64,000 nt of DNA from Eledone cirrhosa. Its lineage: Eukaryota. The translations under genes were made by a program, and so were the position numbers. Under the pieces are notes generated by a model. It was given only the letters and a program-made list of their open reading frames with translations. It was not told the origin of the DNA and ran no database searches. Positions 2,805 through 58,350 of the stretch are shown piece by piece. Within the stretch, counting starts at the first letter, position 1. Every line of letters begins with the position of its first letter. The stretch covers positions 27,652,001 to 27,716,000 of the forward strand of contig OZ024762.1 in the NCBI GenBank assembly GCA_964016885.1, in the 5' to 3' direction.

Positions 2805-4341
2805 TAGAAAGATTTGAATGGATACAGTTTAGTTGAAAGGAATTTATTGACACGTGTTTCTATAACAGTTACATAACCTAAAACAGCTGCTATCTACAAA
2901 CTTTTAGTTATGCAGACATTCAATATTTCAATGTTATTATTTACTGTCATTTCATCAGAATAATATTACTGAGGACCTATTTAGTTTTTATAGAGAATAT
3001 TAGGAGGGAGGGGTGAAGTTGTTAGAAGAATAGTTGAAGGAGTGGTTTTTCGATAGCAGTGAGAATTCTTGGTGGCAGTGAGTAATTAGATTCCCATCTG
3101 TTGTTTTGACATTTTTTATAGAATATATTATTGGTTATTTTTCTAAATCTATAGAAGGATTAGAGATAGTAAAGATATGCGTGGTTGGTTTTGTGTTTGC
3201 ACTTAATTAACATTCAGACTTAAATTTTTCTTTCAAGTGTACGTATCCTTTCACCCACGCATTCACACACAAATATATTTGCACACCTCTACAAAATACA
3301 TATACTCACAATTTACATATTCATACTTACATATATATACACATGCATACACATATATATACACACATGTATTCATGTACATACAATGTGTATACATTTT
3401 CATACTCAACTTATCTTTATATACACATGTATAGACACACACATATATACATACTTACTCTAGGCCATGTGTACACACATACACATACATACACATCCAT
3501 ATACACATATATACATACATATACATATATATATACATATACATATACATATATATATATATATATATATATATATATATATATACACACACACACATAT
3601 ACATATATATATACACATATATATAAGCACTTTAATACATGAATACACTTACATCTAACTATACACATCAAACATATATATATATTTACTTATTTATATA
3701 CATTTTCACATATATATATACATACTTATGGACGTTTTTAGACACATTCATTATCGCATATTTGCACCTATTCTCATCAGCATATCTTTCCATTATTAGT
3801 GTGGTAATTTAAGGTTATTAATATATGTTGAGAAGAGATTGTTTTTATATTTTTCTAACTAGATTAAGGTTTATATAGTTGGGGGATGTCCCTCTTTTAT
3901 GTAATATTCGGCTTGTAGTGGGAAAAAAGGGTTTTAGTTCTGTGACGGCAGAATAATGTTCGTTCAATTCTGTTATTCAGCAGTTTCTTCTTGTGTGTGA
4001 TTATGTAATAAATCTCAAGATTACACAATTTGCAGAAATTTTGGCTCCTGGAAAAGCTTTGGGTTTTAGCTAATTTCTCCCATTTTAGGGTAAACTTTTG
4101 ATCGCTACCATTGATCAATAACATTGAAATATTGAATGTCTGCATAACTAAAAGTTTGTAGATAGCAGCTGTTTTAGGTTATGTAACTGTTATAGAAACA
4201 CGTGTCAATAAATTCCTTTCAACTAAACTGTATCCATTCAAATCTTTCTATTTTTCTCCGGATTACTTTTAGAACTACAACTGGAACCGTCGAGCAAACT
4301 CTACGTGAGCTGATAATCTACTGTGTGTAATATTTATATTA
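2805..4341 (-). mobile_element. 5'-truncated Penelope-like element: GIY-YIG C-terminus, 3' pLTR and inverted pLTR with tail
   Basis: ORF 3897-4145(-) has LKWEKL...CKLCNLEIYYI...LLNNRIE...CRHR, like the PLE ORFs at 12561 and 53051. 2805-2938 is the reverse complement of 4117-4250. (TA)n on both sides. Confidence 0.8.
2844..2963 (-). ncRNA. Type I minimal hammerhead ribozyme with a long (about 90 nt) stem II region
   Basis: Minus strand: ttatt-CTGATGA-[about 90 nt]-GAAACACGTGTC-aataa. Palindromic stem III ACACGTGT, stem I ttatt/aataa. Confidence 0.6.
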
Positions 4342-5991
4342 CAACACAACGGAAAATACTGTATATATATATATATATATATATATATATATATATATAT
4401 ATTATAAAATAACAGGAGGCTGGACTTGTGTAAATCCTTAAAAGGTTTACTATACTATGATGTGACCGGGTTCAGTATGAATCCGGTGACATTATCAGGT
4501 ATTCGAAATTTAACAAAGGAATATAATAGACAAAATCCATGGGGTTGAAAATCAGAGACAAGAGGGCGGCCGAACATTTAGCAGCTTCTACCTCGGTCAG
4601 CCGCCCTCTTGTAGTCACTACTTTAAAATAATAGCGCAAGGTCTTCAAAATGTTTTTAATTAAACATACAGTATATTACCAAATATACTATACACACATT
4701 CATGTATACATCGCTATTTCACAGCACCAATCCTAATATATATATATATACCAGTATATAGTAATATATATATATACCAGTATATAGTAATATATATATA
4801 TATATATATATATACCAGTATATAGTAATATATATATATATATATATATATATATATATATATATATATGTATACCAGTATATAGTAATATATCCTCCTC
4901 CCATCCAACCCACACCAAACACTCCATAGCCTATCCCCAATTCCTCCGTCTTCGTCGCATCTGTAGCCAGGACGAGGATTTCGAAACCCATTCCCTTCGC
5001 ATGGCTTCCTGCTTCATCCAGCGTGGAAACCCCCCCCCCCCCCCCCACCTTGATCCAAGCTGCTCTCACCCGCACCCGTGAAACAGACCGCACCACAGGC
5101 CCTTTCACCTCACCCTCGCCCTCCCAATATCCGTGTTCCTTTCCCTCTCACCTACCACCCCAGCACCCTACCACTCCGGCGACATATCCCCCGTTCCTTC
5201 CGTATCCTCTCTTCTGACCCCATCGCTTTTTTCCAAACCCACCCATTAGTGCTTTTAAGCGCGCCCGAAACCTCCGCGACCTCCTGGTTCGCAGTTCATT
5301 TTCGTCCTCTCCCACGACTCCATCCGGCTCTCATCCTTGTTCCCGTTTCCGCTGCAACACTTGTCCCTTTATTTCCAACCTCACCACTCTTACAGGCCCT
5401 AACGGGTCTTTCCGTATCCGCCATTCCTTCACCTGCACATCCACCCAAGTGTCTATGCCCTCCGGTGTTCCCTTTGCGGGTCTTTATTTATCGGACAAAC
5501 GGGACGCCGTATGGCGGACCGGTTTGCCGAACATTTTAGGGACTCGGTTTGGATACTCCTGTCGCCCGTCATTTCTGTTCTCCTGGTCATTCTTCACTAC
5601 ATGTTTCAGTCCTGGGTGTCCTTTTACATCATGGATCACATGGCGCACCAGGACTGAACAAAGTCTGATTCACCGTCTTGGGTCCTATTCCTCTCTTGGA
5701 CTCAACTCACCTCCCCAATTTCTCTAATACACCATCCATTATCACACCCCTAGATTCCTATCGCTTTCTCTTTGCTCATAACTTCGTACTTACATGCACA
5801 CACACACACTTTTACTCACATAAACACACATATCTCTTCTTAGCTTCGTACGGACCTAAAATAACACACACACACACACACACACACACACACACACACA
5901 CACACACACACACACACACACACACACACTCATGCTTACGCACGTTCTCAAGTATACCACTTTTTACAAATAGGTTTTGTCTTAATAACAG

Positions 5992-6073
5992 ACTTTCCTG
6001 ACGACGGAATGCTTCTCTATATCTTCTTCGGAAAATATATTTACTCCATTCCAGAAACTAATTAGTTGGAAGT
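5992..6073 (+). ncRNA. Minimal hammerhead ribozyme in pLTR copy 1
   Basis: actttc-CTGACGA-cggaatg...cattcca-GAAACTAATTAGTT-ggaagt. Palindromic stem III AACTAATTAGTT. Confidence 0.7.
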
Positions 6074-6513
6074 GATATTTTAGTAAGTAAGTTAATTTTA
6101 TAATTTTCTTATTTTACGTCTCTTATATTATTGTTCTGCAACCCCATGCATTGAACCACAATGTTATTAAGACAAAACCTATATATTTGCTAGCATTGAT
6201 ATGCATCTGTATGTATATATATGTTACTAGATATGAATTCTTTATTATTATCTCCAAATTATTTGTCGAGCAATATTGGCCATGACTGCTGCTACGGTTG
6301 TAGGCAGGCCGCTGTCTTATTAGCAAACCACTTTCCACTGATTGACCTCGATGTCACGTGTTCGATTCTTTTTGAATTTGCCACAGACGCAGAGGCAGTG
6401 AATTTCTCAATGGCTAGGAATTCAGTCCACGCTTTGCTATTTCCTATCCACTGAATTATTTTTTAATAAGTTTCCGGAGTCCTCGCTTTGCCTGGAAACT
6501 TACATGAGAATAG

Positions 6514-56854: not shown

Positions 56855-57285
56855 TTTATTTAGCCCTAGGTCATACCTGATGGAGCAGACCTATCACTAA
56901 CATCTCTCCAGCTATGATCAATTTATCTAGGATGATATTATCCAATAATCCCTTCCTTTTTTATTAATAAAAAAAGTGATAATGTTCTCTGCTAGGAATT
57001 TGGTTGCTATTTCTAATAGGACAAAAACCCACGTAGAGGCATCATCTTAGGTACATTTAATTTAATATAAGTTTGGCTGCTATTTTTAACTTGAGTAGAA
57101 ACCACATAGTGGTGACATTGTTGCTTCGTCTGTTTTGATGGATATTTGGGCTGCTATTTTTAGCAGGTCTAGGAACAATTTAGAAACCACCCTTGCAAGT
57201 TGACGAGATTTTGAAGAGATTTTGGCTGCTATTTCTAGTAGGTTGAATGTGCGCAACACGGCTCCGTCGTTTACTTAAGACAGTT
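56855..57285. repeat. Degenerate SINE-like repeat with tandem ggctgctatttctagcaggt subunits
   Basis: Subunits are the reverse complement of the 33746-34300 unit. The start resembles 42665-42710 and the 51-bp minisatellite core. Confidence 0.5.
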
Positions 57286-58096
57286 ACTCCCCCTTGTTAC
57301 CTTCTTTAGTATTGCTATCCAACTCCACCGTTTCGTATTTGAAAAGGTATTTACTATTTTAATATCAAAACTTTTTCACTTTTTGTTTATATTTTAATGG
57401 ATAGAAGACATTTTCAATTTTCGTTTAAGTATATTATACTTTATTTTACCTGTGTATGTATATATATATATATTTATTTATATGTAGTCAGCTGTTGATA
57501 CGTGTAATTTATTAAATAACCCGGCTTCGCGTGATATTTTTTTCTTCAAAATTTATATTTTAAAAGATTACGAGGTAGCTTTGTTGTTGGTCATTTCTTC
57601 CAGTTAGACGTAACTGAGAAATATACTTTAGATAGCATTCATGTCGTCTTAAATAACAGGTTTAAAGAAAAATAACTGTTCGATAATGTAATCAAACATA
57701 CACGCCGTTACTCCATTTTGGCGCTACGTTTAAAAGTTTCGTTTTTCACCAAAATAATTCAACTTTTTACATATTCCATTCCGCTTGAAACACATAATAC
57801 AAGTAAATATTTATGTATCCGTCTCTCCAGATGGAGTTTCAAGAGTGGAATCGTTCGTTATATACAGCATATCTTGGGTGTTTTAAACTCTAGCGTAGCC
57901 CACCCTCTACTGTTCTCAACATAGACCAAATTTCTTCCAGAAAAGCAGAAAAAGAAAAAATAAGGAGAGCCGACCGGCTCGATGGCTGAAAGTTCTTACC
58001 CGTATTACACCATATACTTTACACATAAACATATAACTTTAACACACACTATGTATATATATATATATATATATATATATATATATATATATATAT

Positions 58097-58350
58097 AAGC
58101 AAAAGGTATATTTAATTTGTTGGTAATTCAACAAATATAAATTCAAAGCACTCGGCAAGTTTTCTGGAGTATAATATTCAATAATATTAAATAAATGGAA
58201 ACTATAGTTATAAAATCATATTTATTCTATTATATATATTTCAAGGGTACCAAAACTTTGGTACGCTCTCATCAGATAAAATACAAAGTTTGTTTTATAA
58301 ATATAGACATACCCAGGAATAAGATTTTAACGGTTCAAGTTATTCCTGGA
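58097..58350 (-). mobile_element. Solo pLTR with hammerhead (58224-58283) and tail
   Basis: CTGATGA-gagcgtaccaaagttttggtaccctt-GAAATATATATA-atagaat. Tail actccagaaaacttgccgagtgc. Confidence 0.78.

What the first reader, a model, noticed from the sequence alone, without database searches (positions are those of the whole stretch)
4256..58170. Conserved tail motif TTGAG(T/C)(A/G/T)C, often preceded by CTCCR, shared across PLE families
Seen in the extended tails: ttgagtgc 22836, ttgagtac 23356, ttaagtgc 24627(-), ttgagttc 26705, ttgagtac 28254, ttgagtgc 28880, ttgagtac 41602(-), ttgagcac 46039, ttgagtgc 48347, tggagtgc 52483, ttgagttc 54027, ttgagttc 55939, ccgagtgc 58148(-), with weaker versions at 4256 and 6252. 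It is always on the pLTR sense strand and roughly 35-80 nt before the terminal microsatellite, although the surrounding pLTRs fall into several non-alignable families (some instances are same-family copies). It is absent from the 29042/32537 and 24494 tails. Inference: a cis element for RT recognition, RNA 3'-end definition or internal promoter function. I do not know of a described equivalent.
Basis: partly seen in the sequence, partly recalled or inferred. Interest (0 to 1): 0.78.

Follow-up and report, generated by a model that had tools for sequence, protein, structure and literature searches.

The report
Twin hairpins mark Penelope insertion ends
The motif is one arm of a small predicted hairpin that Hydra-type Penelope jumping genes carry twice in front of their protein gene; each copy lies about 7-10 bases past one of the element's two fixed insertion ends, so the pair likely tells the reverse transcriptase where to start copying and would explain the long-puzzling 'tail' of these elements.

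Summary
The motif is real but is only half of the signal. It starts 7-10 nt after the short end of the pLTR. Full-length copies show a second copy before the ORF, 7-10 nt after the long end, so tail length equals hairpin spacing. Seen in at least seven families in this genome; their sampled proteins are 37-60% identical and carry Hydra-clade motifs. Relatives in public metagenome contigs carry one hairpin in 46 of 51 clusters and two in 24-25; 17 of 26 second copies end within 9 nt of one (2.4 expected). 77 of 81 inverted pairs have one short and one long end. The motif-less tails belong to other PLE clades; site 55939 is a false member. Best reading (0.68): two RNA handles that position two concerted reverse-transcription starts. 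RNA versus DNA strand is not settled and binding is untested. Seven literature searches found no description.

The parts
4255..4297 (+). First hairpin (HP1) at the start of a 113-nt tail; inverted short-end partner at about 2807
   Evidence: full-length family copy with HP2 and ORF in L061
6133..6159 (+). Probable HP1 of the 6252 family, with one outer pair changed on both sides
   Evidence: read by eye; short end of this family not measured
6251..6273 (+). Second hairpin (HP2), just after the long end of its family
   Evidence: 23 of 25 copies stop here at a microsatellite, 2 run on into this hairpin
10062..10083 (-).
12804..13433 (-). Hydra-type endonuclease frame of the element whose inverted arm carries the 22836 tail
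21477..22433 (-). Hydra-type RT fragment of the same element, cut off from its endonuclease by LINE insertions
   Evidence: 40-56% identical to the other hairpin-bearing families
22816..22843 (+). HP1, first inner pair mismatched in this copy
   Evidence: (5' arm placed by eye)
23343..23363 (+). HP1, 68-nt tail family
   Evidence: run-on copies
24488..24527 (+). 40-nt tail without the hairpin; non-Hydra family
24627..24649 (-). HP1, one outer pair mismatched
26624..26712 (+). HP1 with a long loop, first inner pair mismatched
28236..28261 (+). HP1, 80-nt tail family
   Evidence: run-on copies; both ends in run X1
28866..28887 (+). HP1
   Evidence: run-on copies
29043..29102 (-). 60-nt tail without this hairpin (second copy 32538-32597); non-Hydra family with a different repeated unit after both ends
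41602..41612 (-). 3' arm of HP1 in a 5'-truncated tail
   Evidence: HP2 of this family in L020
45237..45259 (-).
   Evidence: family; this copy read by eye
46020..46046 (+). HP1, one outer pair mismatched in this copy
   Evidence: run-on copies
47536..47559 (+).
   Evidence: family F17; this copy read by eye
48333..48354 (+). HP1, 92-nt tail
52464..52490 (+). HP1
52937..53539 (+). Hydra-type endonuclease frame (CxCX5C linker, no CCHH) of the element that ends in the 54027 tail
53958..54034 (+). HP1 with a 59-nt loop, 130-nt tail
   Evidence: full-length family copies
55939..55946 (+).
58148..58170 (-). HP1

Best explanation
The motif is the 3' arm of a predicted bulged hairpin that occurs twice in the 5' leader of Hydra-type Penelope-like elements, and the two copies likely act as RNA handles that place the element's reverse transcriptase at its two start sites. 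Shown: two copies before the ORF; each 7-10 nt downstream of one insertion end; tail length equals their spacing; inverted pairs have one end of each kind. Inferred: a read-through transcript runs ORF, 3' UTR, hammerhead, site 1, HP1, spacer, site 2, HP2, next start codon. The protein, probably as a dimer, binds both hairpins and cuts both strands of a (TA)n target. Each cut end anneals to 1-6 U/A bases just 5' of one hairpin and primes cDNA synthesis away from it. The two cDNAs are joined head to head. One arm then ends before HP1 (short end) and the other includes HP1 and the spacer (the tail). HP2 of the last unit is never copied, which is why it is invisible in ordinary copies.
For: Two copies, 137-138 nt apart, before an intact 813-codon ORF in 9 of 20 stretches; that family's tail is 130-137 nt. 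63 of 78 alignment rows that stop inside the leader stop at two clusters just before HP1 (34) and HP2 (29); some loci overlap. The prediction of HP2 was then tested in four more families with a pattern that asked only for three letters of the 5' arm after the long end. An intact 3' arm followed in 10 of 12, 9 of 11 visible and 10 of 12 loci; the fourth family has a variant. Also seen in three further families. The TA run starts 7-10 nt before the 5' arm and element identity runs 1-6 nt into it (small counts). Run X1 shows TA loose ends at two places 80 nt apart in the 28254 family (may be the window's own sample). 77 of 81 inverted pairs are short+long, against about 50% if the ends were independent, p=7e-19. 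Metagenome relatives (best-segment identity 34-43%): 46 of 51 clusters have the arms, 25 have two (one of these is a double count), 55-83 nt apart. HP1 inner pairs 1-3 pair in 23, 19 and 16 of 23 loci against 17.8, 12.5 and 8.9 in shuffles, and pair types switch between well-supported sisters on the protein tree. 17 of 26 second pLTR copies end 0-9 nt before a hairpin, 2.4 expected. In PMC11167929 the tail of a Poseidon element lies between two RT start sites, both strands are cut and extended, a dimer is predicted, and RNA 3' of the start sites is required.
Against: No binding, priming or RNA data. Wobble pairs do not pick a strand: 8 G-T against 9 A-C. HP2 is conserved as a pair of arms plus one inner pair; its inner pairs 2 and 4 are at chance and pair 3 is marginal. 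The outer stem is almost invariant in the metagenome set, so it could be read as sequence. The 23356 family's HP2 has no inner stem. 9 of 26 metagenome copies do not end at a hairpin, 5 of 51 clusters lack the arms, and 4 of 81 pairs are short+short. The offset is shorter in the metagenome set (0-9 nt of identity end) than here. The Poseidon template printed in the supplement of PMC11167929 lacks this sequence (read by eye), so the biochemistry is an analogy across clades.
Confidence: 0.68

Rival explanations
1. The hairpins act in DNA (cDNA or a fold-back intermediate). The endonuclease recognises them and trims a longer intermediate 7-10 nt from each, which leaves one short and one long arm.
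For: PMC8557442 ascribes the tail to endonuclease-mediated resolution. PMC11167929 reports an earlier finding that the Penelope tail was needed for endonuclease recognition (original paper not held). No wobble bias to the sense strand. Staggered cutting would also give short+long pairs.
Against: In the one reconstituted PLE the tail limits are RT start sites on RNA. Ends join the TA target through 1-6 nt of overlap with the element's own sequence, as expected of priming. HP2 lies outside the inserted product and would first have to be copied.
Confidence: 0.15
2. The hairpins direct RNA cleavage or termination just 5' of themselves, giving two RNA 3' ends that are then used in ordinary target-primed reverse transcription.
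For: Both ends sit at a fixed distance from a hairpin. PMC11167929 notes RNA-seq read ends at the start sites. The elements carry hammerhead-like cores nearby.
Against: Two free RNA species chosen independently would give about half mixed pairs, not 77 of 81. The Poseidon enzyme starts internally on uncut RNA. The hairpin has no hammerhead core.
Confidence: 0.1
3. The hairpins are promoter or translation-control elements of the 5' leader, and the end positions have another cause.
For: Both lie in the leader; the last one starts 34-69 nt before the ORF match in 37 of 46 metagenome clusters. Other PLEs have promoters in this region.
Against: Does not explain why each copy tracks one insertion end across spacings from about 55 to over 130 nt. 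Covariation across loops of 3-70 nt suits a fold, not a duplex promoter.
Confidence: 0.05

Closest known systems
Internal two-site RT initiation of the Poseidon element PAc (PMC11167929)
   Same: Tail bounded by two fixed sites downstream of the pLTR; both target strands used; AT-rich target; dimer proposed.
   Different: That work places the binding motif only within the first 172 nt of the ORF and names an AC-rich stem loop at the start site. Here a defined motif lies 3' of each site, is duplicated, lies in the 5' leader rather than in the ORF, and the junction overlaps the target by 1-6 nt. The sequence is not in the PAc template (by eye).
Hydra clade of C-terminal EN+ Penelope-like elements (PMC8557442)
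   Same: Protein motifs, (TA)n target, pLTR with inverted truncated copy and tail. 3 of the 6 published Hydra consensuses (one coral, two sea cucumber) show the hairpin by eye, one of them twice before the start codon; a fourth is degenerate.
   Different: The paper's main text has 0 occurrences of 'hairpin' or 'stem-loop' and gives tails of 30-40 bp. Here tails are 64 to about 170 nt. Tandem units are about 3.5 kb and 6.4 kb in two families, longer than the 'generally under 3 kb' described.
Minimal type I hammerhead ribozymes of pLTRs (PMC4209133)
   Same: Conserved, covarying RNA motif shared by non-alignable PLE ends.
   Different: The hammerhead core lies upstream of the short end (67 nt before HP1 in L216 and L217). 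The hairpin has no catalytic core and comes in two copies tied to the ends.
Template boundary element of telomerase RNA; 3' UTR handles of R2 and other LINEs (recalled, no call)
   Same: A helix bound by the RT next to the copied region fixes where copying starts or stops; PLE RTs are sisters of telomerase RT.
   Different: Here the helix is 3' of the start site and duplicated. No sequence or structural homology was tested.

Membership tests
Hydra clade PLE (host element) | Single ORF with RT and C-terminal GIY-YIG endonuclease | tested here: met
   813-aa ORF in L206, motifs read from the translation; Pfam gave no hit
Hydra clade PLE (host element) | CxCX5C linker and no CCHH motif in the endonuclease | tested here: met
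   window 52937-53539 and 12804-13433, L206; definition
Hydra clade PLE (host element) | DKG changed to DKT; N-terminal RWK motif | tested here: met
   DKT in L206 and L161; RWK in the 4256 family, RWR or a close variant in the others
Hydra clade PLE (host element) | Insertion into (TA)n | tested here: met
   the ends were first collected beside TA runs, but the protein-found loci show the same
Hydra clade PLE (host element) | Canonical hammerhead in the pLTR | tested here: inconclusive
   core-like strings in some families; no hammerhead among the 150 Rfam rows shown; no structural descriptor run
Hydra clade PLE (host element) | Placement within the Hydra branch of the RT tree | not tested
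Hammerhead ribozyme (the hairpin itself) | Catalytic core around a three-way junction | tested here: not met
   core lies upstream and apart; the hairpin is one interrupted stem
Any Rfam 15 family (the hairpin itself) | Covariance-model match at the gathering score | tested here: not met
   the 150 best of 281 matches at E<=5 are all below gathering, nearly all microRNA models on microsatellites and palindromes
RT-positioning RNA element (works-like claim) | Bound by the RT; moving it moves the start site | not testable with these tools
   positional evidence only

The most novel reading that the evidence does not exclude
A dimeric telomerase-related reverse transcriptase grips one RNA by two tandem hairpins, one per subunit, and primes both strands of a cut (TA)n target at once. 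This one geometry produces the head-to-head arms, the tail and its length. It is a general rule of Penelope-like elements, each clade using its own repeated handle, as hinted by a different repeated unit after both ends of the non-Hydra 29042 family.
Probability: 0.33. Interest if true: 0.9.

Novelty: new variant of a known kind. Interest (0 to 1): 0.78.

Why it matters
The tail and the inverted arms of Penelope-like insertions have been described for years without a cis signal, and the one in vitro study left the RNA motif unmapped. A duplicated motif of about 20 nt whose two copies predict both ends turns that into a direct experiment, and young families with intact ORFs are at hand. It would also give a rule for annotating element boundaries and a view of how a telomerase sister enzyme finds its template. 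A loose pattern for the motif matches 265,882 times in this 3.0-Gb genome against 60,675 for the reversed control.

Tried and rejected
Bare 8-mer as the functional unit: rejected, it also hits unrelated places. One family only: rejected. Part of the hammerhead, or a known Rfam family: rejected. Self-dimerising palindrome in the 3' arm and the bases after it: considered; several families break it, not pursued. MAFFT alignment of 57 hairpins misplaces the 5' arms because loops vary, and some window ranges were mis-set; not used, no covariance model built; pair counts were anchored on the arms instead. The reverse-complement control is weak (18 of 63 with a hit) because the motif is partly self-complementary; the base-shuffle control gave 3.4 of 63. 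Direct linking of tails to upstream endonucleases in 1.26 Mb was sparse and partly ambiguous; the apparent link of the 6252 family to the endonuclease at 5218 is doubtful because an inverted piece starts the pLTR near 5968. Naiad and Chlamys consensuses: a text search for six 8-mers gave one hairpin-like hit, in a 3' UTR about 400 nt from the end of Naiad_Mmer, probably chance; line breaks can hide hits. Pfam: no PLE hit. No RNA holder listed. Runs X5 and X6 cover only part of the stretch. Own-genome search for run-on copies of the 24494 family returned nothing, not even the window's copy, so it shows nothing. Thermodynamic folding of the leaders in context was not obtained.
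Full report
Setting. The window lies in a 3.0-Gb assembly and is crowded with (TA)n runs, LINE fragments and short fold-back remnants of Penelope-like elements. In these remnants two truncated copies stand head to head; one arm stops early (short end) and the other runs 40-170 nt further (tail, long end).

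The observation. All 13 listed 8-mers are present and lie 38-72 nt before a microsatellite. At 11 of the 13 sites a complementary 5' arm lies upstream: RCTC, an inner stem of varying sequence, a loop of 3-71 nt, a 2-nt mostly pyrimidine bulge, then GAGY (the 22836 arm was placed by eye, and several single copies carry a mismatch). 41602 is truncated and its family has the arm. 55939 lies before the short end; its family's hairpin is downstream in 3 run-on copies.

Test with tails defined without the motif. I collected 3058 TA-flanked ends from the window and 120 stretches of 10 kb and kept 114 long ends with an inverted short partner, in 49 clusters. The strict hairpin starts within 16 nt of the short end in 16 of 49 clusters (14 by first copy). 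Controls: 0.44 in 200 dinucleotide shuffles (max 3), 0 of 49 reverse-complemented, 0 of 49 later in the tail. The 33 negatives were not sorted one by one; by eye they include SINE and LINE ends, degenerate copies, variant hairpins and non-Hydra tails. The pattern was designed after seeing the window. Genome-wide, a loose pattern gives 265,882 matches against 60,675 for its reversed control.

Second copy. Protein searches found a young family with intact frames. In 9 of 20 fetched stretches two hairpins stand before the ORF, 137-138 nt apart; 4 show one, and the others, truncated or interrupted, show none before the ORF. This family's tail is 130-137 nt. Of 108 alignment rows on the leader, 30 run through; of the other 78, 34 stop just before HP1 and 29 just before HP2, and 15 stop elsewhere; some loci overlap. 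That predicted a hidden HP2 behind every long end. Patterns made of a tail end plus three letters of the 5' arm found 40, 710, 368 and 59 matches for four window families (the counts include chance and overlapping hits). In the loci read, an intact 3' arm followed in 10 of 12 (28880/48347), 9 of 11 visible (28254) and 10 of 12 (46039). The 23356 family has a variant with the middle outer pair swapped and no inner stem in 6 of 11 visible loci, two of them duplicates (output partly cut). HP2 also follows the long end in the 4256, 41602 and 6252 families; window site 6252 is itself an HP2. The TA run begins mostly 7-10 nt before the 5' arm at both hairpins, and element identity runs 1-6 nt into it (a few to a dozen copies per family). 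Contigs of run X1 show TA loose ends at 1447 and 1527 of L237, just before HP1 and HP2 (best-supported rows only, and X1 may be the window's own sample).

Concerted use. In ten hairpin families 147 short and 131 long ends were counted; 77 of 81 head-to-head pairs have one of each, 4 are short+short and none long+long (p=7e-19 against one half). The non-Hydra 29042 family gives 11 of 13. One insertion event therefore uses both sites.

Clade. Run-on copies enter ORFs with the Hydra signature of PMC8557442 section 11: CxCX5C linker, no CCHH, DKT, RWK or RWR. Eight ORFs from hairpin-bearing families are 37-60% identical to each other; against the two motif-less families they give 21-35% or no hit. 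The 46039 family showed no PLE ORF within 1.4 kb, and the clade of the 41602 and 6252 families was not fixed. No reference Hydra proteins were aligned, so membership rests on motifs.

Other organisms. A scan of metagenome contigs gave 467 relatives, 77 loci kept. I used 63; 14 were dropped for too little upstream DNA or a missing N-terminus. 50 of 63 have a hairpin within 300 nt upstream of the ORF and 31 have two, against 3.4 and 0.3 in base shuffles. After clustering at 80% identity, 46 of 51 have the arms and 25 have two, one being a double count; the spacing is 55-83 nt. That count required no inner pairing, yet inner pair 1 pairs in 68 of 72 hairpins (shuffle 53.7, 0 of 5000). Split by copy in 23 loci: HP1 pairs at inner positions 1-3 in 23, 19 and 16 of 23 (0, 1 and 9 of 5000 shuffles); HP2 only at position 1 (22 of 23; 42 of 5000), with positions 2 and 4 at chance and 3 marginal. 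Shuffles ignore kinship; on a tree of 22 of the 23 proteins, pair types change between well-supported sisters at least three times. G-T and A-C appositions are 8 and 9, so the folding strand is open. In 26 loci with a second pLTR copy away from a contig end, 17 end 0-9 nt before a hairpin; 2.4 are expected and 10 was the maximum in a million draws. The hosts of these contigs are unknown. Of six published Hydra consensuses, read by eye, three show the hairpin (coral and sea cucumber; one twice before the start codon), one is degenerate and two show none.

Mechanism. PMC11167929 shows for a Poseidon element that RT starts at two internal sites that bound the tail, that both strands are cut and extended, that RNA up to +172 is needed, and that a dimer is predicted. 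Put together with the geometry here, the simplest reading is one hairpin per start site, bound by the element's protein, with short U/A overlap for priming on (TA)n. Positions, duplication, covariation and pairing of ends are shown. RNA folding, binding, dimer and priming are inferred. The DNA-level and RNA-processing rivals remain.

Literature seen. PMC11167929: parts 1-2 of 4 of the text, passages, and the text layer of supplements 1 and 2 (figures not visible). PMC8557442: sections 6 and 11, passages, supplement parts 1, 23, 52, 53 and a term search. PMC4209133 and PMC3846280: passages. bioRxiv 10.64898/2026.07.22.740005: part 1 of 5. PMC522041: not held, known only as cited. Searches listed no paper describing this hairpin or a duplicated end signal; subscription papers and Repbase notes are outside the library. 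The telomerase and R2 comparisons are recalled.

Verdict. Real feature, reinterpreted: a duplicated, covarying hairpin that marks both insertion ends of Hydra-type Penelope-like elements. New variant of a known kind; interest 0.78.

Noticed in passing
window 29043-29102 (-), 32538-32597 (-); L350-L363: Non-Hydra family: 13 of 14 loci run on past the long end, and 12 repeat there the same 6-nt start that follows the short end. Both units can be drawn as a 4-bp stem with a 2-nt 3' bulge, starting right at the end. Possible clade-specific counterpart of the twin hairpins (by eye).
   Followed up: partly
L250, L255, L256, L258 just after the long end: HP2 of the 23356 family has the middle outer pair swapped on both sides and no inner stem.
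   Followed up: partly
window 6133-6159; L119:3037, L035:7545: Hairpin variants with one outer C-G pair changed to T-A on both sides, i.e. covariation in the otherwise fixed core (by eye).
   Followed up: no
window 46007-46094; L261-L272: The 46039 family has both hairpins but no PLE ORF within 1.4 kb downstream; possibly non-autonomous.
   Followed up: partly
L205-L224: Very young Hydra-type family with many equal-scoring 830-codon frames in tandem and inverted arrays; 63,785 first-look candidates for the endonuclease query in the genome.
   Followed up: partly
window 11310-22894: One Hydra-type insertion spans about 11.5 kb because LINE copies (13778-21225) landed between its RT and endonuclease; its inverted tailed arm is at 22390-22894.
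   Followed up: partly
window 46010-46200: The 46039 tail is duplicated in inverted form around its own TA run (tail to tail), unlike the usual head-to-head arrangement.
   Followed up: no
window 58722-63398: LINE with a 767-codon frame and a 942-nt inverted partial copy.
   Followed up: no
window 10980 (-), 4735 (+); L070:3789: Other two-ended families with 47-55-nt tails and no such hairpin; clade not determined.
   Followed up: no
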